A DNA stretch of 64,000 bases from a virus. Lineage: Duplodnaviria > Caudoviricetes. Where the stretch lies: the IMG/VR virus record IMGVR_UViG_3300028797_000100, positions 1 to 64,000 of that record; one strand, written 5' to 3'. This document shows positions 8,431 to 51,456 of this stretch, piece by piece (the stretch's first letter is position 1; every line of letters starts with the position of its first letter). A program made the translations under genes and the position numbers. The notes below the pieces were generated by a model. It had not been told where the DNA came from. It did not search any database and saw only the letters and a program-made list of their open reading frames with translations.

Positions 8431-8658
8431 AGGAAAAATAAAAATACTCAGTAATGAACAATAAGGTATGGTGGAAAATGGCGTAAGCCATAATATAGTA
8501 CACCAATTAATCCTCCAAAGTGTGTATGTAAATTTACGAATGTAAAACGTATAACAGACAAGAAAGGTCCAATGGTCCAAGTATGGAGTAAATTTTAATT
8601 ATATTTACAATGCTCCGTATGTAAACAGCAAACCCGCTATTGAAAGGAATGTTTTAAA

Positions 8659-9714
8659 ATGAGTAAATTAAACATCAACAAGGATAGGATTATCAACAAG
8701 CTTAGAGAATATAAGCGTCACGTTGGTATCGCCGCAGGAGTACTTCTGGCAGTAGGTATATCTACAACTGCAGTTTCACATTTTTCAATGAATGAAGACA
8801 TTGCAGTGTCAGAGGATAATATCATAGAAGGTGTGACCGAGATAACAACTACTACTGATATCCCTATGGCAACAGTCGTTACATCAACAGCAAAGTCCAT
8901 GAAATACAGTGTAACAACTGCCTTGTTGACAACACTTAACACCACAGCTGGTACGGTAATTGAAACACCGACAATTACAACCGTAACTACTATAGCTTCA
9001 ACTGAAAGCATCAAGCCTTTACCGGCACCGCCTAAGATGGAGCAGGCTGAGGAACCAACGACAGCAGAGAACACCACTGTTGTAGAGTCTACCACAACTG
9101 AGACAACAACCGAGTCTACAGAAGCAACTACAACAACAGTTGCTACTACAGTTGAAGAGACTACCACTACTACTTCAGAACCAGAGGTAGGAAACAGGGA
9201 ATTCACTGTGTATAAACCTAGTACACACTACGTACATAGGAATACATGTCATTGGTATACCGATGAGTGTTATGAAATCACATCAACAGAAGGTTTAGAG
9301 TGTAGATATTGCACTGAATGCAATCCCGACATAGAGATTGTAACAGCATATCAAGTACCTACTCCGACTTTGACTTCATTACAGTACGTAACCGAAGAAG
9401 AGCGTATCTATCTGTGCAATACAGTTGCATATGAGTACGGCTCTGATTGGGTGTCGCTCTACGACAAAGCATGTGTCGTAGCAACTGTAATGAATAGAGT
9501 TCGTGATGGTGGTTGGACTAATGGTCTGCCTAGTACAGTGTACAATGTACTGACAGCTCCATATCAGTACAATCCGGTTTACGCAACTCCTTACTACAGC
9601 TATAATGTAACACAGAGCTGTATTGATGCTGTCGAATACTATTTCGAGCATCAGAGCGACTTCCCTCACTATACATCATTCTGGGGTGACGGTCGTTACA
9701 ATTACTTTAGATAA
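8659..9714 (+). CDS. Membrane-anchored cell wall hydrolase (SleB/Hydrolase_2-like) with Thr-rich linker and small Cys/His metal-binding domain
   Basis: N-terminal TM, T/E-rich stalk, YVHRNTCHW..CRYCTECNP, then LCNTVAYEYG..VVATVMNRV..VLTAPYQY. Confidence 0.75.
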   Translation: MSKLNINKDRIINKLREYKRHVGIAAGVLLAVGISTTAVSHFSMNEDIAVSEDNIIEGVTEITTTTDIPMATVVTSTAKSMKYSVTTALLTTLNTTAGTVIETPTITTVTTIASTESIKPLPAPPKMEQAEEPTTAENTTVVESTTTETTTESTEATTTTVATTVEETTTTTSEPEVGNREFTVYKPSTHYVHRNTCHWYTDECYEITSTEGLECRYCTECNPDIEIVTAYQVPTPTLTSLQYVTEEERIYLCNTVAYEYGSDWVSLYDKACVVATVMNRVRDGGWTNGLPSTVYNVLTAPYQYNPVYATPYYSYNVTQSCIDAVEYYFEHQSDFPHYTSFWGDGRYNYFR

Positions 9715-9741
9715 ACCATAAGAAATAATATGGAGGATTAA

Positions 9742-9996
9742 ATGAAAAAGAAGATTAGAATAAAAGAAGTGATCATAACAGAAAAGGTCGTAAATGGTAT
9801 CTCGAACAAGATTGTTACCGCGACCGACGAAGATGGCAAAACTGTTAAGCTGTCACGCACCGAACGACAGTTATTAACAGGATATAAAAATCCAGAGTAT
9901 CTGGAATTAATCAAAAAGGGATTTGGTAATCCCGAAATAGTATCCCCGGACTTTAAAGTCTATAAGAACGGGGTGCTAAAATTTTACATACACTAA
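9742..9996 (+). CDS. Hypothetical protein
   Basis: GGAGG RBS, co-oriented, followed by hairpin 10018-10036. Confidence 0.7.
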   Translation: MKKKIRIKEVIITEKVVNGISNKIVTATDEDGKTVKLSRTERQLLTGYKNPEYLELIKKGFGNPEIVSPDFKVYKNGVLKFYIH

Positions 9997-10017
9997 CACA
10001 CAATTGAACAGAGATAA

Positions 10018-10036
10018 CCGGGGCGTAAAGCCCCGG
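10018..10036. terminator. Hairpin/terminator between convergent genes
   Basis: CCGGGGC-GTAAA-GCCCCGG, T tract nearby. Confidence 0.65.
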
Positions 10037-10056
10037 CATTGTCTCATTTATTTTTT

Positions 10057-10662
10057 TTAATCATCGAAGTCGTTGTCATACTTAATTGGTTCATCATCTT
10101 CTGTTTCCTCGATTGGCTCTTCGCCATCCAAACCAGTTTCGAGGGTTTCTGGTTCTTCCTCTGATTCATCTTCTTCGGCGTCTACATAATCACCGTCTTC
10201 TTCTTCGTACTCTTCATCGACATCGTCATCTTCATCATCGATGTCGTCATCTTCTTCCCATTCATCATCCTCATCATATTCGTAATCTTCTTCGTCTACA
10301 TCATTTTCATCTGCAACCTTCATGTTCTCGATAAACTCTGCGAGAGCATTCATGACAAGCGTTGTATTTTCTTCTGTTTCTTCTTCTTTTGTTTTCTTAT
10401 TAAGCTGCTTACCAACCTGATTAATACCAGTTGCTGCAGCACCAGCTGAGAGGCCTATGAAAACAGCCTCGATGAGATTAGCTCCCATCTCCACATTTGG
10501 AGTATAGAAACCACAGATACCGAGAGCGACACCATATATTATCGAGAATATAGGGAGCACCCTACCAATGTCCTTCTTGAAACAAAACTTGCCTATGTAC
10601 CTTGTTATAGAGTCAAGCATTGTTACAAAGCTACCGATTGTAATAATTGAGAATTCTAACAT
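10057..10662 (-). CDS. Phage holin with long acidic C-terminal tail
   Basis: Holin-like pattern LPIFSIIYGVALG...GLSAGAAATGINQVGKQL, followed by a long D/E-rich tail. Confidence 0.7.
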   Translation of the reverse strand: MLEFSIITIGSFVTMLDSITRYIGKFCFKKDIGRVLPIFSIIYGVALGICGFYTPNVEMGANLIEAVFIGLSAGAAATGINQVGKQLNKKTKEEETEENTTLVMNALAEFIENMKVADENDVDEEDYEYDEDDEWEEDDDIDDEDDDVDEEYEEEDGDYVDAEEDESEEEPETLETGLDGEEPIEETEDDEPIKYDNDFDD

Positions 10663-10743
10663 AATATTTTTCTCCTTTCAAAAACATATATAATTGAAAT
10701 GATGACCGAACAGATCATTACAAATTTGTGGAGGTAATTACAC

Positions 10744-10914
10744 ATGAAGCATGAACCATTATTGCATGAAAATCCCGAGAAAAAGAAAGTGCCAACTTTC
10801 AAGGATTTGGGATTCATTAAAGAAGAGGAACCCACATCAACTAGTAAACGCTTGACAGATATCCTTAAAAAGATATCTTCAAATAGAAAATCAAAAAAGA
10901 ATAAACGGAGGTAA
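10744..10914 (+). CDS. Small basic hypothetical protein (56 aa, MKHEPLLHEN...)
   Basis: GGAGGT RBS; below the ORF-track cutoff; abuts the next gene. Confidence 0.55.
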   Translation: MKHEPLLHENPEKKKVPTFKDLGFIKEEEPTSTSKRLTDILKKISSNRKSKKNKRR

Positions 10915-10920
10915 ACCCAT

Positions 10921-11802
10921 ATGGAAAGCAATCACAAGGATCTTCTTGATCAGGTAATCAACGAGACAAACACAGCCGAGATTCCTGTAACAGAAGGAGA
11001 AGAAACCCAGACAGAAGAGTCTATTCAGGAAAAGATTGACAGAGGATGCATCAAGCTTGACTCATGCACAGGTGCAGGATTTTTCATCGATCCTTCAAAC
11101 AATCCTGACTTGTTCGCACCTGAGAATGTAATGACACACATTTCTCATTTCATAGAACAGGAACAGGCTCTCACAAACATCTATCACAATCTGCTTTGTC
11201 ACAGCCAGGTACCAATGAATGAATTCAGTGAGTATCTGGATCACCTTATTCCACAGCTCGAGAAATCTCTTAAGGGATTTGGCATGACAGTAGATATGTA
11301 TAAGGATCAGAATGACAAGCTCAGTTCTTATGAACTCGCACTTTACATATCATTCGATCTGTTCTCATTCACAAAGACTATCCTCGGATATCTTGAATCA
11401 ATCGCACTGGCTTACATACCACAGACACCTTTGACACCATCAATAGATTCAGGCTTCACTAACCCCGGTGTATTCAATAATGGTGAAGTAGAACTTCCTG
11501 ATGGTTCAGGTAACAAGTGCTACAAAGTATATGGCCATATTCAGAAAGATAACAGTGTTGAAATCATCCAGATTGAAGAATCATCCATTGATCCTTCCGA
11601 TCTTCTCGTCGTTCATGATGAAGATGGTGATGAACTCGATTGTGTTATCTCGGTACACACAATAAACAAATCTGAAGAGGATGCTGTTAGGGATGCTAAG
11701 ATAGTATTCCAGGGATACATCCGTGACATGCTTGAAACTGATTCAGCTAAAGCCTACAGACTTGCAGAAGAGATGCAGGCTGAGTCTGGTTTACTTAGCT
11801 AA
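10921..11802 (+). CDS. Acidic hypothetical protein
   Basis: 293-aa ORF with GGAGG RBS. Confidence 0.8.
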   Translation: MESNHKDLLDQVINETNTAEIPVTEGEETQTEESIQEKIDRGCIKLDSCTGAGFFIDPSNNPDLFAPENVMTHISHFIEQEQALTNIYHNLLCHSQVPMNEFSEYLDHLIPQLEKSLKGFGMTVDMYKDQNDKLSSYELALYISFDLFSFTKTILGYLESIALAYIPQTPLTPSIDSGFTNPGVFNNGEVELPDGSGNKCYKVYGHIQKDNSVEIIQIEESSIDPSDLLVVHDEDGDELDCVISVHTINKSEEDAVRDAKIVFQGYIRDMLETDSAKAYRLAEEMQAESGLLS

Positions 11803-11814
11803 GGAGGAAACAAA

Positions 11815-13068
11815 ATGAAGAGTTATGTATTTCATCATAACGACGATGACGGAAAGTGTGCTGCTTTTCTGGTAAAGCAGTATCTCATTAACCCAATGGA
11901 GCCTCTCACACCTGAGAACTTCATTGAGTATAACTACCAGGCAAATCTCGATAAGAAAATCCCAGCATTTGAAGAAGGAGACATGGTTTACATTGTAGAC
12001 TTATCACTTGATCCATCAACACTAGATCTCATTCGCAAGTGTGCTGAATTAAAGGTTAAGGTTCTTCACATTGACCATCATCACACAGGAATTGAAATGT
12101 ACAATACATACAAGTCTGAACTTGAAGGTTATGGTAACTATACCTGCTTATTGAAGGAAGGTATATCTGGTACAATGCTTACATGGATATATGCAAATGT
12201 ATTCAATGAAGCAGACAAACTCGATCCTATGAATGCAAAGTTCGACTTCGATGATGATGATGTAAGAAGAACATGCTGTCGTATCGATAATAATGGTAAT
12301 CCTATTAATAAGGATAATGAACCCATTATGAGCGATAAGACCATTGAGCGTATTCCTGATGTTGTCAGAATGATTGATGACAATGATATCTGGAAACATA
12401 AAATCCAGGATACCAAGTTCTTCACTGCTGGTTTCCAGCTCACAAGAGATAAGCATCCTCTGAATCATATATGGGTTGAGTTACTTGATGAAGGTGATGT
12501 TCGTCAGAAGAATGATATACTGATGTCAATACTCAACAACGGTGTTACTGTTGTAGGATATAGAGGTGCTCTTGATGCAAAGAATCTTGCAAATGGATTC
12601 TTTGTAACTATCAATGGTATCCAGGTAGCTTGCCTCAATGCAATGGATGGCAATTCATCCATCTTCCAGGAGATATATGACAACTGTGCTGCTGTATGCA
12701 AGTATAGCTTTGATGGTGCGAAGTATTTCTATACATTCTATTCAAGAGAAAATGGTGGTGCTGATGTATCAGAGATCATCAAGTTCTTGGAAAGAACATA
12801 TAAAGACCTGTGTGGATTCATATCCGGCGGTGGTCATGTTCATGCTGCAGGTTGTCAGTTCAAGAAAAACTTCATCGATCAGCTTATAATTGACAAGGCC
12901 GGATATGTTCAAAAGCGTAAAGATATCAAGCTTGATACACTTGTTGCTGCTGAGCAGAAAGCTATCAAAGAGCGTGAGCGTATGCTTCGTGAAGAGCAGG
13001 AAAGAGTTGCGGCTCTGCGTGCTAAGTATGAAGCACAGATGAACGACGAAGAAGATTACGGTATATAA
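11815..13068 (+). CDS. DHH/DHHA1-family phosphoesterase
   Basis: HHNDDDG, IVDLS, IDHH, DDNDIW, GGGHVHAAG motifs. Confidence 0.9.
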   Translation: MKSYVFHHNDDDGKCAAFLVKQYLINPMEPLTPENFIEYNYQANLDKKIPAFEEGDMVYIVDLSLDPSTLDLIRKCAELKVKVLHIDHHHTGIEMYNTYKSELEGYGNYTCLLKEGISGTMLTWIYANVFNEADKLDPMNAKFDFDDDDVRRTCCRIDNNGNPINKDNEPIMSDKTIERIPDVVRMIDDNDIWKHKIQDTKFFTAGFQLTRDKHPLNHIWVELLDEGDVRQKNDILMSILNNGVTVVGYRGALDAKNLANGFFVTINGIQVACLNAMDGNSSIFQEIYDNCAAVCKYSFDGAKYFYTFYSRENGGADVSEIIKFLERTYKDLCGFISGGGHVHAAGCQFKKNFIDQLIIDKAGYVQKRKDIKLDTLVAAEQKAIKERERMLREEQERVAALRAKYEAQMNDEEDYGI

Positions 13069-13070
13069 GT

Positions 13071-13100
13071 ATATGGGGGCAATTGCCCCCATATTTTTTT
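13071..13100 (+). terminator. Rho-independent terminator between convergent genes
   Basis: ATATGGGGGC-AATT-GCCCCCATAT + T tract. Confidence 0.8.
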
Positions 13101-13101
13101 A

Positions 13102-15009
13102 TTAACTTTTTATGATTTGCTCAAGAGGTGTAACAGTAGGTTGTTTACCATTCAGAGTCTGTGCAAGGCCCTTGTTCATTCCTGTTGAGATATCCTCAAA
13201 CAGAATTGCTTGAAGAACACCTGATTGTTGAACAGCCTCACGGTATCTCAACTTTTCATATCCCATTGGGTCTGCATTACCCTTACCATATACAGTAGCA
13301 TACGATTTATCACCATGACGGCATACACGTCTCGCTAATAGCTCATATGTAATAGCAGGACCAGTAAGATCGATACCATTGATCTCAAGACATCTGAACA
13401 TGAGCTCTGTCATGAGATTGTAAGGAACCTGTGGTGATTTAGAATAGAGATATATCTGATTAATGAAGAATTCTACATTAGCAGCAGTCTTCTGAATAGC
13501 CAGTGTACATACAGCTGAGTTTGGTTCATATGTTACGATGTAATTATCTGGATCTTCCTGGACGTCATCATAGATATTGAATGTGAGTACACCAGGAACG
13601 ATCATCATTGTTGATAACAATTCATTGTCATTGTTATCATAGAACTTAACAGGGAATATACCCATACAAGAAATGTTTGTAGGTTCTTTAACGAATCCGT
13701 CAAGCTCTTCAAGAAGACGTGGTATGAATAACTTGAGCTTTGTTTTATTATACATAACACCTTCTGTGATATGGAACATTGGATCAGTTCCTTCTTTGTT
13801 TGCAAATACATATTCCTTAGGAATGATACCAGCATTCTGAGAAAGGTCATGTTTTGATTTAAGTTTAATATTAAGAAGCTTCTGAGTAATCTGGGTTACA
13901 AGCAGACCAACATTCTTAACACCAAGGTTATGGAATACGGTACCAGCACACTTGCCACATATAGCTTCTCTTTCACAACACTGAGGAGAATATAACTGAA
14001 CTGTTTTGCCAATGTAATTATTGATGTTATGAAGGTCTGTGAGGACTTTCTTACCATTGTCATTGATATATCTGAAGAGAGCATACTTGGTATTCTTCTT
14101 TGTAATAGTAAGAGGAATTGTCTGTTCAGTACCACAGTCAGAATTAGGATTCTCATCGATGTGTTCTGATTGGAGAAGAGCCAATATGATCTTAGCCATA
14201 TAACCAGCATCAGCAGTACCAACAGCTGAAGGATATGCAGCAGCCAATACAGAGTTAGCAAATGGGGTTATATCATTCTTGGTAATACCATTCATGAGCG
14301 AGTTCTCAACAACGTCGTATCTCTTGGTACCTTCGTTGAAAACAGAACCTCTCATAACATTGATGGTCTTGTAGTTGTTATCCAAGTTACCATCACCGGA
14401 TCTATATAAGTCATAACCAGGATCGTTCTTAAGATTCTCACGAACCATTCCCATGAGTTCTTTCTCAATCTTATTAACAGCCATTGTCTGAGTAACAGGA
14501 TTGGTAGATCTGATTTCATTCTCATACTGTTTGAACAACTCAGCTTTACGTTTGTTAACATTGTCCATAGGTCTAATGAGAGCTGGAGATATAGCAACAG
14601 CCAAGAAAGCAGCACACCAGAAACCAAGTCTATCTCGAGAGTCGATGTAATCACCCTTCTGTTGCATTGTGATCAAATCCTGAATGGCAAGATTATTAAC
14701 TTCGGCAGTTAATCTTTCAAGACCCTTCTTATCGATAGGATCATTCCAATATCCAAGATGCTGGATGATACCAGTACGCTCAAGAATGTATCTATTGAAG
14801 ATTAACATTCCGACAGTTGTTGATATACTTCCATTGACCCACTGATATTCTTCTTTCTTTAAAGAAATAACCTCAGTTGGAACAAATGGTGGTTGATGGA
14901 ATTCACCAGTTTCTCTGTCGTGATAACCAGCAAACATGTTTTCTATAAAAGTTTTATTGATCTGACTGATATCAGCTTGTAAAACTTTATCTTTAGCTAT
15001 GGAAGCCAT
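13102..15009 (-). CDS. Phage multisubunit RNA polymerase beta-prime subunit, C-terminal half
   Basis: Bridge-helix-like AVGTADAGYMAK, DCGT, Zn site CCEREAICGKCAG, trigger-loop-like NVGLLVTQITQKLLNIKLKSKH; no NADFDGD, consistent with a split subunit. Confidence 0.85.
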   Translation of the reverse strand: MASIAKDKVLQADISQINKTFIENMFAGYHDRETGEFHQPPFVPTEVISLKKEEYQWVNGSISTTVGMLIFNRYILERTGIIQHLGYWNDPIDKKGLERLTAEVNNLAIQDLITMQQKGDYIDSRDRLGFWCAAFLAVAISPALIRPMDNVNKRKAELFKQYENEIRSTNPVTQTMAVNKIEKELMGMVRENLKNDPGYDLYRSGDGNLDNNYKTINVMRGSVFNEGTKRYDVVENSLMNGITKNDITPFANSVLAAAYPSAVGTADAGYMAKIILALLQSEHIDENPNSDCGTEQTIPLTITKKNTKYALFRYINDNGKKVLTDLHNINNYIGKTVQLYSPQCCEREAICGKCAGTVFHNLGVKNVGLLVTQITQKLLNIKLKSKHDLSQNAGIIPKEYVFANKEGTDPMFHITEGVMYNKTKLKLFIPRLLEELDGFVKEPTNISCMGIFPVKFYDNNDNELLSTMMIVPGVLTFNIYDDVQEDPDNYIVTYEPNSAVCTLAIQKTAANVEFFINQIYLYSKSPQVPYNLMTELMFRCLEINGIDLTGPAITYELLARRVCRHGDKSYATVYGKGNADPMGYEKLRYREAVQQSGVLQAILFEDISTGMNKGLAQTLNGKQPTVTPLEQIIKS

Positions 15010-15045
15010 ACTATCATTCCTTTCTTATATTCAATGAAATTAAAT

Positions 15046-15055
15046 ATATATTATT
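15046..15055 (+). promoter_or_regulatory. Putative early promoter driving the 15.2-18.07 kb unit (includes the array)
   Basis: ATATATTATT motif; no obvious terminator until 18032. Confidence 0.6.
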
Positions 15056-15218
15056 TAAATGAGTAGGGAGGAGTCGTTCAGGCCGATGGGCAATGCATTT
15101 ATTGGGATCAGCATCGTTGGGCATTGTTGATCAATATCTGGCAAAGACATCGTAATAGCTATGATACTCTAGGTGTCCTTACTAGCGCTATTTATCAGGA
15201 GGTGAATATCAATAAATA

Positions 15219-15350
15219 ATGAATGATGAGAACATCTACACATTGGATACCAATGATACATCTATCGATCCGTATGAGACATTAAGTGGAATCGATGTTT
15301 GTAATCCAAGTGAGGATGAATTCTCTACAATGTTGGAATCCATCATGTAG
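15219..15350 (+). CDS. Small acidic protein (43 aa, MNDENIYTLDTNDTSIDPYE...)
   Basis: AGGAGGTG upstream (spacing rather long); D/E-rich. Confidence 0.4.
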   Translation: MNDENIYTLDTNDTSIDPYETLSGIDVCNPSEDEFSTMLESIM

Positions 15351-15479
15351 GAGTTCTTGTCAATGTGTTTCGCCAGAGCGAAAGACTCCGGTAGATTACC
15401 CAGTTATGGAAATCGAAAGAGACGAGTACCTCTGGCAATAATCTAACGCCAAAAAATAAAAAGAAAAGAGGAAAAGAAA

Positions 15480-16643
15480 ATGAAAAATCTCAAGTCAGTA
15501 AAGATTGTGAAGAACACAATCGACCAGATGTACGACGCAATGACATGTGTGTCTAAAGAAGATATCGATGTTATTCTGAGAATTAATCCTGTCATTCAGA
15601 CGGATCTCGAACAGCTCAAAAAATTATTCGAATCAGATACTATTTCAGAGATTGAACCTGTCATTGTAGCCCAGCCAGAACCTGTTGTTGTCAAGGAGGA
15701 GGAAGAACCAACACAGGTAGAAGATGAAATTATTGAAACGCCGGAGCCAAAGGAAGAGGCTCCAAAAGTAACTGTCACTGTATCCAGTGATTGGCTCAAG
15801 TACAAACCCGATGTGGTTTGGAAGAAGGATATGGGTCAGTCATCTAAGCGCTTTAAGGAAGGTCTCATGGTCTCAAACGAAGGTGACGTTTGGGATATCA
15901 AACATAACCAGCTTCTCGAAGGTAAGTTCCTTGATTGCGAAATGAAGGTGCTTATCAAGAAGGACACCTATGTGAATGAAGAACCAGAGGATTCTCACGT
16001 TAGAATTGCTCCGATTGTATGTCGTGCCTTCGGTATCAATTCAAACACAAAGAATTCATCCACAGCAACCAAGGTTATCATTGATTACATCGATGGTGAT
16101 AGACGTAATCTGAGACCTGAGAATCTTAAATGGGTTAAGACCATTTCGTACCCGAATAAGTCGAAAATCCTTGCAGAAGATGTATGCCGCAGACTCGTTG
16201 AGGCAAAGGGTGACATCGATGCAACCATGAAGAGATATTCTGATAGCACCATCACCAGAGGTTATATCTCAAACATCCGCAATAAACTTATCGAGACAGC
16301 ATTGTCATCGAAATTCTTCTACATTGAGAACGGTAAGTTCCGTGCTGTTAACGATAAGAAAGTTAAACCTGCAGAGAGTAAGCCCAAGGTATCTGCATCA
16401 GCATCTTCATACGAATTCACAAATGAGCCTATCGAAATGCTTGAAAACAGTATACGCAAAGGAACACTCACAATCGGTGAAAAGAATCTGATGATTGTTA
16501 AGACAATCGAGGAACTTCAGGGTGGTAACACTTCCAAGAAGATCACTGCAGAGGACATCGTTGATTCAATTAGAGATAAGTGGAAGATCTCTCTTCCCAC
16601 AGATATGGCTCAGACAATTCTTGACATAGGAGGTATAAAGTAA
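15480..16643 (+). CDS. Degenerate (probably inactive) NUMOD4/HNH-like protein with HTH-like segments
   Basis: VSNEGDV, HVRIAPIVCRAF and IDYIDGDRRNLRPENLKWV match the HNH_3 pattern, but the catalytic His is replaced by Tyr. Confidence 0.65.
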   Translation: MKNLKSVKIVKNTIDQMYDAMTCVSKEDIDVILRINPVIQTDLEQLKKLFESDTISEIEPVIVAQPEPVVVKEEEEPTQVEDEIIETPEPKEEAPKVTVTVSSDWLKYKPDVVWKKDMGQSSKRFKEGLMVSNEGDVWDIKHNQLLEGKFLDCEMKVLIKKDTYVNEEPEDSHVRIAPIVCRAFGINSNTKNSSTATKVIIDYIDGDRRNLRPENLKWVKTISYPNKSKILAEDVCRRLVEAKGDIDATMKRYSDSTITRGYISNIRNKLIETALSSKFFYIENGKFRAVNDKKVKPAESKPKVSASASSYEFTNEPIEMLENSIRKGTLTIGEKNLMIVKTIEELQGGNTSKKITAEDIVDSIRDKWKISLPTDMAQTILDIGGIK

Positions 16644-17143
16644 TGGCTGATAATAGAATTGAAAGAACGGTTGACTGTATAGAAACCTTTAAGGTAGGTT
16701 ATGCTACCTTAAGAGAGGAGCAGTTCAACAAGGAAGACATTACAGACTTCGTCGATTTATTCCCGGAGTATGGGCTCCGTATATCTCTCATATATCATTT
16801 CCTCAACGGAGATCTTAACGTATCTGCTGATATCGATACGGAAGATGATACTGATGAGCAGTATGATGATTCAGAGACCGAAGAAGAATCAAAGCCATAT
16901 TCCCGCAAGGGTATGACTTACAACCGCATGACAAAGCTCGATGCGGAAAACATCTCGAAGTATATCGCTGAGAAGTGTAGAGGTCGTGCAGACTTTGGTT
17001 CAATTGTAAATGACATTTATGATTATATAAATGGCAAATTCAATAAGGGAACCATCAGAGATCTTGTTCATGGTAAAACATGGGCAACAATTTCCCAGAA
17101 TTACTTCAAAATCGAAAAGAACAAGATAAAGTCAGTAGTATAA
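16643..17143 (+). CDS. Hypothetical protein with C-terminal HTH-like domain related to the upstream gene
   Basis: AENISKYI...TIRDLVHGKTWATISQNYFKIE resembles AEDVCRRL...YISNIRNKLIETALSSKFFYIE of 15480; translationally coupled (TAATG). Confidence 0.7.
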   Translation: MADNRIERTVDCIETFKVGYATLREEQFNKEDITDFVDLFPEYGLRISLIYHFLNGDLNVSADIDTEDDTDEQYDDSETEEESKPYSRKGMTYNRMTKLDAENISKYIAEKCRGRADFGSIVNDIYDYINGKFNKGTIRDLVHGKTWATISQNYFKIEKNKIKSVV

Positions 17144-17171
17144 GTTCTCGTGGAACTTAAAACCACGCGTT

Positions 17172-17205
17172 GTCTCCGGGGGATTAACATCCCCCGACGT
17201 GAGAC
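17172..17205 (+). promoter_or_regulatory. Leader hairpin immediately 5' of the array (no U tract)
   Basis: GTCTC-CGGGGGAT-TAAC-ATCCCCCG-ACGT-GAGAC. Confidence 0.6.
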
Positions 17206-17215
17206 GTACAGTAGC

Positions 17216-18021
17216 GGTCCTGTTGCACACAATGTCGCATTATGACGTTGGGGTTCAGTGGAGTTTTGACTCGTGGAGTTTCGGCATGGGTTTGGTTAGG
17301 TCTTGCCTGTTGAGTTCAGTATTGTTTCGTGACGGTTGAGTTCCGTCAGGTAAAGAGTGGCCGTGTTTGGGTAACGTCCCGTTGGGCGGGTGCGTAGTTT
17401 CGGCTTTGAGACGGACTGTTCGGTAGTGGACGTTTGGTTTCGGTGAAGTAATGTGCCTTAATGTGGTATGACGTCGTGGTAAGGTGATATGAAGCGAGGT
17501 GGCACTTTGTAAAGGTATTGCATAGCTAACTCGGGTAAGCTGGCGTACGGGTATGGTGATGCCCGATAGTGTCAGGTAATGGTGTGCTGTAGCATTGTAC
17601 TGGACAGTATTGTTTCGTTTTGGTGCAGGGCAGCTAAGATGTGTCTAGTTCCGGTATCGTAGCGTTAACTCCTGCTGTGATTAGCTAAGGTGAGGCCGGG
17701 TGCTGAGCGGTATCGTTGTGATAGACCATGTATCGGTAAGGCTGGGTGTCGTGCGGTGCGACAGATCATTGCGTTGGTATGACTCCGCATAACACGGATG
17801 TGTGTTGTGGTGGTAGGGTTCTGTTACGTATTGTCGGCAGCGTAGGGGTTCGGTTATGCGCAATGCCGTTGGTTATCGTGCCGGTGAAGTGTTGAAAGGT
17901 GATGTCAAGTAACGTTTCGGTTAGGTATGGTTTCGTCAAGCAATGCGAGGTAAAGGTGTAGTTTCGGATCATCTAGGTTCGTGGTGGTTTGGCCAAGCCT
18001 ATCCAGGCTACATGCGGTATC
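17216..18021 (+). ncRNA. Pentamer-periodic G-(GY-NNN)n array, 22 units; candidate programmable guide-RNA array
   Basis: Unit starts (all GGY) at 17216, 17252, 17283, 17334, 17370, 17402, 17442, 17478, 17514, 17550, 17581, 17622, 17653, 17689, 17735, 17776, 17812, 17852, 17883, 17919, 17955, 17986; 19 of 22 lengths are 5n+1; the repeat structure is directly visible, RNA function is inferred. Confidence 0.75.
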
Positions 18022-18031
18022 AAAGAAAGAC

Positions 18032-18066
18032 ATGCTCCCCATTTCGGGGAGCATTCTTTTTTTTTT
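18032..18066 (+). terminator. Rho-independent terminator closing the array (probably bidirectional)
   Basis: ATGCTCCCC-ATTTC-GGGGAGCAT + long T tract; A-rich on the 5' side. Confidence 0.85.
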
Positions 18067-18334
18067 ACTTTATGAGATGCTTATTAAATTTAACATATCC
18101 ATCAACATACATTTCTTCCTTAGCATCATTATAAGTTACCTCATAATATTTACCATCAGGAAGAGTTGTAGATAACTGAGCTTTCTGGCTACCGAGTACA
18201 TATTGTGAATTTACAACATATACATCATCGATTGTAAACTCAACATGATCTGTTGGATCAAGTCCTTCGATTACCATCAGATACACAGCCTCTTTTGCTT
18301 TCTGGATAAATTCTGCTGAACCGTTTAACTTCAT
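18065..18334 (-). CDS. DUF6275-like small phage protein
   Basis: DDVYVV..KAQLSTTLPDGKYYEVTYN..KEEMYVDGY pattern, recalled from this family. Confidence 0.7.
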   Translation of the reverse strand: MKLNGSAEFIQKAKEAVYLMVIEGLDPTDHVEFTIDDVYVVNSQYVLGSQKAQLSTTLPDGKYYEVTYNDAKEEMYVDGYVKFNKHLIK

Positions 18335-18618
18335 TCTACCACTCCATGTTTTACTCTGTCATGCTCTTCGGCACGTTTACCGTTGTTCCAACGATCCATT
18401 GTACCAACGAGATAGCCTGTTATACGTCTAATCCTAGAGAAAGGAGCTGAATGTTTATGGGTTTCGATCTTAACATCTTCACCCTCAAACTCAAGGATTA
18501 TCTCATCGATAATCTCATCGGGGTATTTGTTCTTAACATACTTAACGTACTCCTGTACTTCTTCCTCGGGGATGGTTGAGATGTCGCCGTCTTTAAGACT
18601 AACTTTCATAAATAACAC
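18331..18618 (-). CDS. Stand-alone NrdD C-terminal glycyl-radical-domain protein
   Basis: RIRRITGYLVGTMDRWNNGKRAEEHDRVKH is the class III RNR glycyl-radical loop; only 95 aa. Confidence 0.75.
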   Translation of the reverse strand: MLFMKVSLKDGDISTIPEEEVQEYVKYVKNKYPDEIIDEIILEFEGEDVKIETHKHSAPFSRIRRITGYLVGTMDRWNNGKRAEEHDRVKHGVVE

Positions 18619-18641
18619 TCCTTATTTAATTAATTTGACAT

Positions 18642-18651
18642 ATATATTATT
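18642..18651 (+). promoter_or_regulatory. Putative early promoter of the 18.7-29 kb cluster
   Basis: ATATATTATT. Confidence 0.65.
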
Positions 18652-18710
18652 ACCAAGATATGATGGTAATAATCATATTAATAAAAAGTCAAAATGGAGG
18701 TAAAAGAAAA

Positions 18711-18821
18711 ATGAAAATGCCAAGAAAGAAACTCACACTAACTGACATTGCAATCATAGTGGTATGTACAGCATTGGTTGTATTATCCGTTGTAGGCGTA
18801 GTAATGTCGTTAGATCGATAA
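18711..18821 (+). CDS. 36-aa single-TM protein
   Basis: GGAGG RBS; MKMPRKKLTLTDIAIIVVCTALVVLSVVGVVMSLDR. Confidence 0.6.
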   Translation: MKMPRKKLTLTDIAIIVVCTALVVLSVVGVVMSLDR

Positions 18822-18837
18822 TCAAGGAGGTCATGAT

Positions 18838-19197
18838 ATGGAGACGCCTTTTGGAATTAAAAAGGTTGATGGGGATATTGATTTTGGAGAATATGATGCA
18901 TTTCCTTTATACGGCGAGAGGTTTATATTTGATCCGGACATCTATGTCGAAGGGATGGCATACACACGGTTCTTTGGGGATGAACCGGAAGACCATGACG
19001 TGTTATTGTTAAGATACACACCAACAAAATTAAAGTTGATCTGTGTACCTGATCATACAATAACCCCGTTAGAGTTTCACATATCAGATGTATTACTGTT
19101 TGGAATGTTACCGGATCCATTCGGTTTTTGTCCATTCGGTAAACCATCATTATTACCGGCTATCATTAGAATCAAAGGAGGGACGGAAAATGAGTGA
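18838..19197 (+). CDS. Hypothetical early protein
   Basis: AAGGAGG RBS. Confidence 0.75.
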   Translation: METPFGIKKVDGDIDFGEYDAFPLYGERFIFDPDIYVEGMAYTRFFGDEPEDHDVLLLRYTPTKLKLICVPDHTITPLEFHISDVLLFGMLPDPFGFCPFGKPSLLPAIIRIKGGTENE

Positions 19198-19369
19198 ACC
19201 GATTTATCCGTGCATCGAAAACTATCTTATTGAAGCGGATCGTTATATACGCATGGCCTTGGAGAGTATCGATGAAGATCATCCTAAGTTCAAGGAAATA
19301 TCTAAAATCAGAGTTGAATTGAAACACTGTATATCTGATGTATGTTTCGGATCAAAGGAGGATAAATAA
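19190..19369 (+). CDS. Hypothetical protein (start revised to MSEPIYP)
   Basis: AAGGAGG RBS before ATG 19190. Confidence 0.65.
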   Translation: MSEPIYPCIENYLIEADRYIRMALESIDEDHPKFKEISKIRVELKHCISDVCFGSKEDK

Positions 19370-19716
19370 TGTATCTGATAGAAGTTGATCCAGGAATGAT
19401 GTCAAAACTATTACCACATAAATACTTCGTTGATGCAAAGAGCCCCAATGAAGCATACGATATATTCTGGGAAAAGTGTATACACGATGCTGATAATTCT
19501 TTAATGTTTGACTCGTTATTTGTTTCCGGTTGCAATCCCAATGGATTCAAACTAACACGTGAACATTTTTATCTTGATAGAAGTTGTTGGGGTAAAAACG
19601 ATAAACGGGTTTATTATGAAAGACGCGTTAAAGATACCGATCCACATCCGGGAACAATCAGTATCATACTGACAAGGGTTCCCACTCAAATAAAAGCTCG
19701 ATATAAACAAATATAA
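19369..19716 (+). CDS. Hypothetical protein
   Basis: Coupled start, RBS. Confidence 0.75.
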   Translation: MYLIEVDPGMMSKLLPHKYFVDAKSPNEAYDIFWEKCIHDADNSLMFDSLFVSGCNPNGFKLTREHFYLDRSCWGKNDKRVYYERRVKDTDPHPGTISIILTRVPTQIKARYKQI

Positions 19717-19733
19717 ATTCAGGAGGTATAATC

Positions 19734-19994
19734 ATGAATACTAAAACAACCACAAAAGAAGTCCGTGTCATCGACACTGAGAAATTCGAAGTAGGTAGAG
19801 CTTACCGTATTCGCAAGAAAGGTGAGTTCGCTACACATGACGTTATATGTGCTAACGTAACTGAAAGAGTAGTTTCATTTGTATTATATAATGAGGCTTC
19901 CGGCATATCTGATATGTTGATATTGGGAGTTGAACCTGCATTTGGCGCTGGTATTGATGATTATACCATAATGAGATTATATCCAAAGGAGTAA
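19734..19994 (+). CDS. Small protein, stand-alone module B (FxxGxxY family)
   Basis: VIDTEKFEVGRAYRI motif shared with neighbouring genes. Confidence 0.75.
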   Translation: MNTKTTTKEVRVIDTEKFEVGRAYRIRKKGEFATHDVICANVTERVVSFVLYNEASGISDMLILGVEPAFGAGIDDYTIMRLYPKE

Positions 19995-20001
19995 AAGAAA
20001 T

Positions 20002-44074: not shown

Positions 44075-44084
44075 GGGATTAACA

Positions 44085-44384
44085 ATGAAGAAGAAGGGTT
44101 TAACGGTCATCGAGATTATTGTAGCATCTGTCATAGTTATAGTACTGCTATTAATAATCGGCGGTGCTTTACTAAATGAGAAGAACAAGATATCTGAAGG
44201 AACAGTTGTTGAACGTACGTATGTATCAGGATATATGACAGACAATGGATATGTTCATTCAAAGTGTAAACTGACTATCGAAGGTGAAAAGAACGGTAAA
44301 ATAGTTCAGTACACATTTGAGGTTCCTGAGTCTGAGTATGCTCAGTACCAGGTTGGAGATCATTATCCAAAACCGAGGGGGTAA
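44085..44384 (+). CDS. Small membrane protein with type IV prepilin-like N-terminal signal
   Basis: MKKKG/LTVIEIIVASVIVIVLLLII: basic leader, Gly at -1, Glu at +5, hydrophobic helix. Confidence 0.65.
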   Translation: MKKKGLTVIEIIVASVIVIVLLLIIGGALLNEKNKISEGTVVERTYVSGYMTDNGYVHSKCKLTIEGEKNGKIVQYTFEVPESEYAQYQVGDHYPKPRG

Positions 44385-50577: not shown

Positions 50578-51456
50578 TTACAATACCCCCTCTAACTCCG
50601 TATTAGCATATCCAAGAGTACTGAAGGATTCATCAAGTGCATCTTGTACATTTGTCGCAGTTGCTCCAGATGTAGAGTTATCATATACTATACCAACCGC
50701 ATCTTTGTTATACGTAGGAGTCCAATCCATCTTAACACCACTCCATGAACCACCACCAGCAATTGCATTCCATGAATATGGAGCAGTTGTCAATGATTTG
50801 CATGTCCACCAGAATGCGGGACCATTAACCATTACTTCTGCTTCAGCATTACCTGAGAATGGTAATGCTGGTGAATACAGTTGACCAGTAACGATTGTAT
50901 TCGTTGGAAGGTTCTTCGCATACAGTTCATCAGTAATCTGCTTCAGAGTCTTTCCCGAGGTTGTTATATTCAACTCAGTGAATGTAGTGAAGTTATACTG
51001 AGCATCTATCTTCTCTTTGATAGTAGCCATAGCGGTATCAAGAATAGTTAAACTGTTACCGTAGTTTACTAACATCTGTGAACCACGAATACCGATAATG
51101 TCACCAACCTTTGTTGCAGAACCACCATTGATAGACTGCATAAGTTTATATGTAACTTCACCGGTATTGTTATCAGTTACTTTGGTTACGGTGTAACGGC
51201 TTTTATCACCTTCACCACCGCCTCCTCCGCCACCGCCCTCATCAGGGAAGTAGTCATAGAAGTTTGTACCATCAATAACTTTTCTGGTACCAGCTTCAAA
51301 GATATAATAGTTTGACAGCTGTATCATGTGTTTAAGCTGTTCCGCATCTATGTCATATCCATAACATGGATTAGGTTGATTGATTATAGGAATATTCCTT
51401 GGGTTTTTTGTAGGAATAGTCATATCAATTATATCAACACTAACTGTATCAGCCAT
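50578..51456 (-). CDS. Putative virion-associated protein
   Basis: Start revised to MADTVS after GAAAGGA; C-terminal ATNVQDALDE fibre motif. Confidence 0.7.
   Translation of the reverse strand: MADTVSVDIIDMTIPTKNPRNIPIINQPNPCYGYDIDAEQLKHMIQLSNYYIFEAGTRKVIDGTNFYDYFPDEGGGGGGGGEGDKSRYTVTKVTDNNTGEVTYKLMQSINGGSATKVGDIIGIRGSQMLVNYGNSLTILDTAMATIKEKIDAQYNFTTFTELNITTSGKTLKQITDELYAKNLPTNTIVTGQLYSPALPFSGNAEAEVMVNGPAFWWTCKSLTTAPYSWNAIAGGGSWSGVKMDWTPTYNKDAVGIVYDNSTSGATATNVQDALDESFSTLGYANTELEGVL

What the first reader, a model, noticed from the sequence alone, without database searches (positions are those of the whole stretch)
17216..18021. 806-nt array of 22 units built as G-(GY-NNN)n: candidate interleaved-code guide-RNA system
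Seen: this stretch is sharply GT-rich and non-coding in an otherwise AT-rich, gene-dense genome, and it parses into 5-nt steps. Examples: 17883 GGT ga AGT gt TGA aa GGT ga TGT ca AGT aa CGT tt c; 17919 GGT ta GGT at GGT tt CGT ca AGC aa TGC ga GGT aa a. Each unit starts with GGY (20 GGT, 2 GGC), and one extra base resets the register at each junction. Unit lengths are 36,31,51,36,32,40,36,36,36,31,41,31,36,46,41,36,40,31,36,36,31,36, so 19 of 22 are 5n+1. A hand count over 18 regular units gives G at scaffold position 1 in 103/125 pentamers and a pyrimidine at position 2 in 113/125; none lacks both. The other positions differ from unit to unit, so this is neither a satellite nor a CRISPR. A GC hairpin without U tract precedes it (17172-17205), a strong terminator follows 10 nt after the last unit, and an early promoter motif lies upstream at 15046. 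Inference: it is a transcribed array whose GY scaffold is bound by one protein subunit per pentamer while the variable bases specify targets, processed at the GY-NNN-GGY junctions into ~31-46-nt guides. From memory it resembles recently reported viral GGY/NN repeat RNAs (VIPR-type) that work with RAMP/Cas7-like proteins. I cannot verify that link. Here the scaffold is GY with three variable bases plus a unit-level punctuation, and no RAMP gene is adjacent, so it may be a distinct variant.
Basis: partly seen in the sequence, partly recalled or inferred. Interest (0 to 1): 0.95.

Follow-up and report, generated by a model that had tools for sequence, protein, structure and literature searches.

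The report
VIPR guide-RNA array in jumbo phage
This 806-base stretch is a real array of about 22 short guide RNAs of the recently described phage VIPR system (a Cas7-like protein reads 5-base repeats), and at least one guide matches a DNA-replication gene of prophages living in Ruminococcus gut bacteria, so it is a good new example of a known system rather than a new one.

The parts
15046..15061 (+). Promoter-like motif ATATATTATTTAAATG at the head of the operon that ends in the array
   Evidence: An exact copy lies about 60 nt upstream of the leader of array A3 (genome 155210). A 2-mismatch copy lies upstream of the vipr gene (genome 66869). About 16 copies occur in the contig. The syntenic locus L157 has the same motif. 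That it is a promoter is inferred.
15480..16643 (+). 387-aa ORF with a degenerate HNH_3-like motif, upstream of and co-oriented with the array
   Evidence: Pfam HNH_3 E 1.2e-5 and PHROG HNH endonuclease families. The relative L157 has a homolog of 373 aa. A role in the system is not shown.
16643..17143 (+). 166-aa ORF of unknown family; its stop codon lies directly before the leader
   Evidence: No Pfam or PHROG match. A 153-aa homolog sits at the same place in L157. No relative was found in IMG/VR.
17144..17217 (+). Conserved structured leader: P1 hairpin (CGTGG/CCACG), then a bipartite hairpin P2 (GTCTC/GAGAC), a 4-nt 3' bulge and variable P3, then RTAAAGT
   Evidence: It is shared by all three arrays of this genome and by relatives L157, L212, L087, L213, L088 and L090. 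The same architecture appeared in 7 of 7 single folds. Compensatory changes are seen in P2 (GTCTG/CAGAC, GTCCG/CGGAT), P1 (TGTGG/CCACA) and P3. No Rfam family matches.
17216..18021 (+). vrRNA array A1: about 22 abutting units of the form G(YNNNG)n, n = 6-10, equivalently x-G-Y-N-N pentamers with one extra G at each junction
   Evidence: The orthologous array in L157 keeps the scaffold and leader but has about 13 units, most of them different.
17848..17883 (+). Guide with identified natural targets (NN = TC TA GC GC TG AT GC)
   Evidence: It matches 13/14 in G001 10820-10839(-). It matches 14/14 in 14 IMG/VR loci and in 24 of 80 bacterial-genome loci, always at the same site of the Enc34-type SSB gene, with skip bases on codon position 3. 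The ortholog L157@8508 matches 16/16.
18032..18058 (+). Intrinsic terminator (9-10 bp GC-rich stem plus T run), 10 nt after the last unit
   Evidence: Equivalent terminators, preceded by a CAAAGAA-like motif, end A2 and the arrays of L003, L087, L088, L090 and L157.

Best explanation
A1 is one of three vrRNA arrays of a VIPR (Viral Interference Programmable Repeat) system carried by an AR9-like jumbo phage, probably of Ruminococcus. Inferred: the array is transcribed from the motif at 15046, through two ORFs and a structured leader, to the terminator at 18032. Inferred from the SUSP1 structures: the RNA is coated by the phage's single Vipr protein (298 aa, genome 66943-67839, acting in trans), one protomer per pentamer, which sequesters G and Y. 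The W-R pair that holds G2 and Y3 in SUSP1 Vipr is kept (W247, R248). The G1 contacts are replaced (D177 to Q246; H17 to S39 by eye), which fits the relaxed first position. One extra G at each junction makes units of G(YNNNG)n. These units act as separate guides, either cut apart or as breaks in the filament; this step is not shown. Shown here by sequence: the two bases N4 and N5 of each pentamer match target DNA with one base skipped per pair, and the skip falls on codon wobble positions. The guide at 17848-17883 matches the Enc34-type ssDNA-binding gene of a prophage family resident in Ruminococcus and related Clostridia. Guides of the sister arrays match neighbouring genes of the same prophages. 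The likely outcome, by analogy with tested VIPR systems, is silencing of resident or competing phages during infection.
Against: Vipr lies 49 kb from A1. Sequence similarity to a published Vipr is limited to the G-loop. Only one of about 18 regular A1 guides has an identified target, and two other A1 guides gave no hit or only chance-level hits in IMG/VR. There is no per-unit 3' tail or pseudoknot as in type II VIPR. The contig is about 61% complete. I could not see the paper's figure of staggered arrays to confirm that the architecture is identical.
Confidence: 0.88

Rival explanations
1. A1 regulates the phage's own genes, acting as a temporal switch through self-targeting VIPR silencing, rather than targeting competitors.
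For: Two 14/14 skip-1 matches occur inside the contig: A1@17479 to 44084-44103 and A3@155642 to 50986-51005. The arrays sit behind a recurrent phage promoter-like motif.
Against: Self-matches show no excess over shuffled guides. One match is low-complexity GAAGAAGAA, and neither places the skip on wobble positions. Clear external targets exist. The VIPR paper reports no self-targeting.
Confidence: 0.05
It would instead titrate or hijack the Vipr of a co-infecting element, as described for satellite solo vrRNAs.
For: No vipr lies within 20 kb, which is the 'solo' criterion of 10.64898/2026.10.15.759431.
Against: The same contig encodes a Vipr. A1, A2 and A3 share their leader, repeat grammar, promoter-like motif and target prophage family.
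Confidence: 0.04
3. A1 is a periodic non-guide RNA, such as a sponge or scaffold for an RNA-binding protein, or a DNA-level element such as a curved-DNA, origin or packaging signal.
For: Strong strand-asymmetric G+T composition, and no direct RNA evidence.
Against: The variable bases match prophage genes in codon phase under exactly one skip rule. NN positions are conserved in orthologous guides while x drifts. A promoter-like motif and a terminator bracket the array. Arrays are consistently linked with a RAMP gene.
Confidence: 0.03

Closest known systems
VIPR systems with 'staggered' vrRNA arrays and YNNNG-type repeats (types other than II; bioRxiv 10.64898/2026.04.26.720920, Methods and fig. 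S17-S18 legends)
   Same: A small RAMP (Vipr) plus one accessory gene. 5-nt repeats with a reduced scaffold (YNNNG is the same as xGYNN). vrRNAs abut without tails, so that the end of one marks the start of the next. Phage-encoded, with targets in other phages.
   Different: I could not see the figures or tables, so identity of architecture and clade is unconfirmed. Here there are three dispersed arrays (about 80 units) on one jumbo-phage contig, two of them far from vipr. Each array has a conserved structured 5' leader that the text I read does not mention. The word 'jumbo' does not occur in any of the three VIPR preprints searched for it.
Type II VIPR of Escherichia phage SUSP1 / Pseudomonas fulva prophage (structures 36pp, 36pk)
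   Same: One protomer per pentamer is inferred. The G-loop motif G-x-G-x-W-R is shared. The 1-nt-skip NN code has skips on wobble positions. Targets are competing mobile elements. The SUSP1 locus was re-read here.
   Different: SUSP1 vrRNAs are separate ~100-nt RNAs of 9-16 strict GGYNN repeats, each with an invariant 3' pseudoknot tail. Here G1 is free, units have 6-10 repeats, and there is no tail. The protein is 298 aa against 195 aa, with an insertion at about 140-180. The G1 contacts D177 and H17 are replaced.
Non-canonical VIPR-like period-5 clusters (WGT/NN, TGH/NN) in 10.64898/2026.10.21.760802
   Same: A degenerate first scaffold position next to a Vipr-like fold.
   Different: Those clusters are described as about 10 repeats beside the protein. 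Kilobase staggered arrays are not described there.
CRISPR class 1 crRNA with a Cas7 backbone (type III Csm3/Cmr4, type VII Cas7)
   Same: The best structural matches of the protein. Periodic protein binding along a guide RNA, with flipped bases.
   Different: There are no direct repeats or spacers and no other RAMP gene on the contig, and cas1/cas2 were not searched for. The period is 5 nt rather than 6. The guide is non-contiguous.

Membership tests
VIPR system | A minimal RAMP protein (RRM core, G-loop, thumb) encoded outside a CRISPR context | tested here: met
VIPR system | Sequence homology to a published Vipr protein | tested here: inconclusive
   hhalign of the 87-sequence family profile against SUSP1 Vipr gives probability 78%, E 1.8e-5, over the G-loop only. 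hmmsearch against PDB chain 36pp_D 'SUSP1 Vipr protein' gives E 0.05. The paper states that RAMPs share little sequence similarity.
VIPR system | Tandem 5-nt repeats with a conserved GGY or related scaffold and hypervariable NN | tested here: met
   x-G-Y-N-N with G 89% and Y 92%; N4 and N5 carry under 0.07 bit. z = 13.7 against dinucleotide shuffles. YNNNG repeats are listed as an accepted alternative.
VIPR system | Arrays lie beside vipr across the family | tested here: met
   A2 follows vipr and a 157-aa ORF. The same order is seen in L003, L087, L088, L090, L212, L213 and L214. Period-5 GY runs lie directly downstream of the gene in many of 80 IMG/VR loci. A1 itself is distal.
VIPR system | Natural targets obey the 1-nt-skip rule (NNx), with skips on wobble positions | tested here: met
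   Skip 1 gives 11 guides with hits, against 2-4 for skips 0, 2 and 3 and 0-4 for shuffles. A1@17848 matches 14/14 in 24 of 80 genome loci in codon phase. An A2 guide matches 20/20 in IMG/VR.
VIPR system | An accessory gene (vap) next to vipr | tested here: inconclusive
   A conserved 142-157-aa ORF follows vipr in all close relatives. Its C-terminus has only a weak HNH_3-like motif, E 0.11. It was not compared with vap1-6, because no sequences were available.
VIPR system | vrRNAs are expressed, processed and bound by Vipr | not testable with these tools
Only the promoter-like motif and the terminator are seen.
VIPR type II (SUSP1-like) | An invariant 3' tail with a pseudoknot after each repeat tract, and a strict GGY scaffold | tested here: not met
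   Units abut directly. G1 is random. The SUSP1 locus, read for comparison, shows separate vrRNAs with tails. So A1 is not type II.
CRISPR array | Identical direct repeats of 20 nt or more that alternate with spacers | tested here: not met
   Units share only the G and Y scaffold positions, and identity at lag 36 is 0.39.

The most novel reading that the evidence does not exclude
Jumbo phages of rumen and gut Clostridia carry a distinct VIPR subtype. In it, kilobase 'staggered' arrays are launched from several early operons, each behind a dedicated structured leader that serves as the processing or filament-nucleation signal, in place of the per-guide 3' pseudoknot of type II. Together the arrays would form an arsenal of about 80 guides that shuts down resident prophages on entry. 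The arsenal would also reach prophage accessory genes next to defence systems: a 106-aa Gly-zipper ORF beside an ABC-3C system is hit at four sites by guides of five related phages. That would make VIPR an anti-defence tool as well as a weapon between phages.
Probability: 0.3. Interest if true: 0.7.

Novelty: new member of a known kind. Interest (0 to 1): 0.5.

Why it matters
VIPR was first described in April 2026 and has been tested mainly in one E. coli phage and one Pseudomonas prophage. This locus extends it to an AR9-like jumbo phage of the rumen or gut. It shows that one Vipr gene can apparently serve several distant arrays holding about 80 guides. It gives a clean natural example of the 1-nt-skip code: guide and target variants co-vary, and target variants differ only at skip positions. 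It links relaxed G1 recognition to replaced G1-contact residues. It also points to a conserved leader as a candidate processing or assembly signal for tail-less arrays. Finally, it names a likely host (Ruminococcus) and testable targets, the prophage SSB gene and its replication module.

Tried and rejected
- Rfam at E <= 1 over 15000-20000 found nothing for the leader or the array.
- blastn of the locus against INPHARED phages, near and distant modes, found no match.
- A strict leader pattern had 0 hits in IMG/VR.
- A looser leader pattern in JGI metagenomes gave 120+ mostly chance hits. Only L157 was a true relative.
- The 166-aa upstream ORF has no relative in IMG/VR.
- BLASTP of the 157-aa ORF next to vipr against the two ORFs upstream of A1 found only a weak shared HNH_3-like motif.
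- phmmer of the Vipr-like protein against PDB sequences, and a Pfam scan, found nothing.
- The self-target search in the contig under eight rules showed no excess over shuffles.
- Codes that use all three variable bases (NNN) were also tried in that self-target search and likewise gave no excess.
- Skip rules 0, 2 and 3 were at background on the target-phage set.
- Exact IMG/VR scans of A1@17690 (18 specified bases) and A3@155591 (20 specified) gave 0 hits.
- A1@17736 (16 specified) gave 11 hits. These are about 6 independent unrelated sites with no co-hits by other guides, so I treat them as chance.
- Sigma-70 promoter consensus matches in the locus are not above shuffles.
- The VIPR paper has no supplementary files held as text, so type assignment (I-VII) could not be made.
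- The VIA-align library did not list a Vipr structure, so there is no direct structural comparison with 36pp.

Full report
**1. The observation**

Window 17216-18021 is G+T rich (66%) in a 38% GC genome and has no ORF longer than 68 aa.

Base autocorrelation peaks at lags 5, 10, 15 and 20. It then shifts to 26, 31, 36 and 41. This is what a 5-nt period with +1 slips predicts, and it explains why a plain Fourier peak at 5 is weak.

A phase-tracking parse with the model x-G-Y-N-N scores 99.4. For 300 dinucleotide-preserving shuffles the score is -24.3 +/- 9.0, so z = 13.7. Of 26 phase changes, 23 are +1 insertions.

Pooled over the genome's three arrays, the scaffold G is 89% G and the Y is 92% pyrimidine. 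The other three positions are random. Each junction reads x-G|G-Y-N-N, so a unit is G(YNNNG)n and its length is 5n+1.

**2. Context in the genome**

The window is the first 64 kb of a single 163,720-bp virus contig. CheckV rates it about 61% complete. Its RNA polymerase subunit is closest to those of Bacillus phage AR9/PBS1 and Staphylococcus jumbo phages, at about 33% identity.

A scan of the whole contig found two more arrays with the same grammar, both on the + strand. A2 lies at about 68421-69445 and A3 at about 155344-156505. First readers of this scan had already noted A2, A3 and a RAMP-like gene next to A2. I tested these leads myself.

The RAMP-like gene is a 298-aa ORF at genome 66943-67839 (L001:2943-3839).
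- It has 26 close homologs and 923 cluster representatives at E <= 1e-3, mostly 200-250 aa long.
- Its AlphaFold model has pLDDT 80 and pTM 0.76.
- By Foldseek the listed matches, 116 of which reach E <= 1e-3, are chains of type III Csm and other CRISPR effector complexes, including type VII Cas7.
- A profile of 87 family members hits type VII Cas7 (1.2e-5), Csm4 (2.8e-5) and the PDB chain named 'SUSP1 Vipr protein' (36pp_D, E 0.05).
- It aligns to SUSP1 Vipr over the G-loop with hhalign probability 78%, E 1.8e-5. I took the SUSP1 protein from the phage record after locating its GGYNN vrRNAs.
- It is the only such gene on the contig.

**3. What is known**

VIPR was reported in 2026 (bioRxiv 10.64898/2026.04.26.720920). 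A minimal phage-encoded RAMP, Vipr, polymerises on vrRNAs made of GGY/NN pentamers. The NN bases pair with double-stranded DNA and skip one base per pair. Natural targets are competing phages, satellites and prophages.

The paper lists seven types. [quoted passage not shown]

The structure paper (10.64898/2026.04.26.720927) shows how SUSP1 Vipr reads the scaffold. G1 is read by H17 and D177, G2 by R138 and W178, and Y3 by R179.

In the protein here the G-loop reads G-T-G-Q246-W247-R248. The G2 and Y3 contacts are kept and the D177 position is Q. By eye, H17 corresponds to S39. This fits a repeat in which G and Y are fixed and the G1 position is free. It is an inference, not a test.

**4. The gene-array link across relatives**

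In seven related jumbo-phage contigs the order is vipr, a 142-148-aa ORF, a 0.9-2.3 kb array and a terminator. These are L003, L087, L088, L090, L212, L213 and L214.

At least 562 IMG/VR loci encode more distant ~200-aa relatives. In many of the 80 loci I fetched, period-5 GY runs start right after the gene.

**5. A1 in a relative**

L157 is a JGI contig whose RNA polymerase is 88% identical in protein sequence. It is syntenic with window 8557-18503.

It has homologs of the two upstream ORFs, a leader that is 93% identical, an array, a terminator and the same downstream genes. Its array has only about 13 units, and most of them differ from those of A1.

**6. Leader and transcription signals**

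All three arrays begin with a ~70-nt element (window 17144-17217). It consists of a P1 hairpin, the conserved string CGTTGTC, and a bipartite hairpin (P2, a 4-nt 3' bulge, a variable P3), followed by RTAAAGT.

Nine examples from six phages keep this architecture. Seven were folded singly and all seven adopt it.

Compensatory changes support the pairing.
- P2: GTCTC/GAGAC, GTCTG/CAGAC, GTCCG/CGGAT.
- P1: CGTGG/CCACG versus TGTGG/CCACA.
- P3: differs throughout.

Rfam has no match. The function of the leader is unknown. I favour a processing or filament-nucleation signal for these tail-less arrays.

The motif ATATATTATTWAWATG lies upstream of each array operon: window 15046, genome 66869 (two mismatches) and 155210. 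About 16 copies occur in the contig. Each array ends in an intrinsic terminator or close to one.

**7. Targets**

An exact IMG/VR scan with a 10-repeat A2 guide (20 specified bases) gave a single hit, in a 27-kb phage contig, G001. I estimate the chance expectation at about 0.02, calibrated. The next guide in A2 matches 16/18 only 8 nt away on the other strand.

Guides from L003, L087, L212 and L214 hit four sites in the same small ORF. Across G001, real guides give 18 hits against 1.8 for shuffled guides.

Among the real hits is the A1 unit at 17848-17883. It matches 13/14 at G001 10820-10839. Its ortholog in L157 matches 16/16 at 10817-10839. The gene is an Enc34-type ssDNA-binding protein, Pfam PF10991, E 2e-76, and the skipped bases fall on codon position 3.

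I then tested the skip rules on 80 IMG/VR loci carrying this gene (1.18 Mb).

| Rule | Hits | Guides with hits |
|---|---|---|
| Skip 1 | 93 | 11 |
| Skip 0 | 3 | 2 |
| Skip 2 | 3 | 3 |
| Skip 3 | 8 | 4 |
| Shuffled guides, skip 1 | 0-24 | 0-4 |

The A1 guide is exact in 14 of these loci, and the target variants differ only at skip positions.

In bacterial genomes the closest homologs of the gene (87-98% protein identity) lie in Ruminococcus flavefaciens ATCC 19208, ND2009 and FD-1, in R. callidus ATCC 27760, and in Ruminococcus and Oscillospiraceae MAGs. They are therefore prophages. The A1 guide is exact in 24 of these 80 loci, including FD-1. A2 and A3 guides hit sites just upstream and about 1.35 kb upstream in the same module.

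In 11 orthologous guide pairs the substitution rates per position are x 0.20, G 0.05, Y 0.21 (mostly C/T), N4 0.012 and N5 0.13. The code is therefore NN. The third variable base is not part of it.

**8. Verdict**

A1 is a vrRNA array of a VIPR system, used in trans by a Vipr gene 49 kb away, and aimed at least in part at Ruminococcus prophages. Shown here:
- the repeat grammar;
- the RAMP fold of the protein;
- the gene-array linkage;
- unit turnover between relatives;
- leader covariation;
- the skip-rule targets.

Three things are inferred: transcription, unit processing and silencing. The system has been known since April 2026, so this is a new member of a known kind.

Several features may be new but could not be checked against the paper's figures:
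- several dispersed arrays in one jumbo phage;
- the structured leader;
- the G1-relaxed repeat together with replaced G1 contacts;
- the Ruminococcus prophage targets.

Noticed in passing
genome 66943-69500 (L001:2943-5500), outside the window: The core VIPR locus of this phage: a 298-aa Cas7-fold Vipr-like gene, a 157-aa ORF ending in an HNH_3-like motif, a leader, the ~1.0-kb array A2 and a terminator. Some A2 units are near-identical in the distant relative L003 (Vipr 51% identical).
   Followed up: yes
genome 155210-156505 (L002:5210-6505): The third array, A3 (~1.16 kb). It is a stand-alone unit with promoter-like motif, leader and array, and no obvious terminator. One of its guides (156117) matches a Ruminococcus flavefaciens ND2009 prophage with 1 mismatch.
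   Followed up: partly
L215:3952-4272 (IMGVR_UViG_3300029251_000270): A 106-aa Gly-zipper-like ORF with no Pfam or PHROG match. It is hit at four sites by guides from five related jumbo phages. It lies between a 605-aa ORF of unknown family (with a UvrD-like helicase beyond it) and an ABC-3C three-gene system. In this contig it carries an in-frame TAG at codon 32, whereas the homolog in L219 has Q there. It may be a prophage defence or exclusion gene.
   Followed up: partly
window 15046; also 299(-), 7550, 59255 and about 12 more sites in the contig: A recurrent motif, ATATATTATTnnnATG, likely a phage promoter class. It precedes all three array operons.
   Followed up: partly
window 17370-17441; L157:8590-8660; L003 ~12775: Two irregular units (32 and 40 nt, with internal phase breaks) are the only internal A1 units conserved in L157, and one recurs in L003. 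No target was found for them. They may be a conserved guide pair or an internal structured element.
   Followed up: no
window 15480-16643 and L001:3893-4366: ORFs upstream of arrays A1 and A2 both carry degenerate HNH_3-like motifs (DGDRRNLRPENLKW and DGNPTNLKFANLGW). Some IMG/VR Vipr loci have a full HNH_3 gene between vipr and the array (L015, L082).
   Followed up: partly
genome ~97.7-100.7 kb (earlier notes e1-5823136 to e1-5823138): Earlier first-reader notes report a phage Ro60/Rsr gene with Y-RNA-like genes interleaved with tRNAs. I did not examine this.
   Followed up: no
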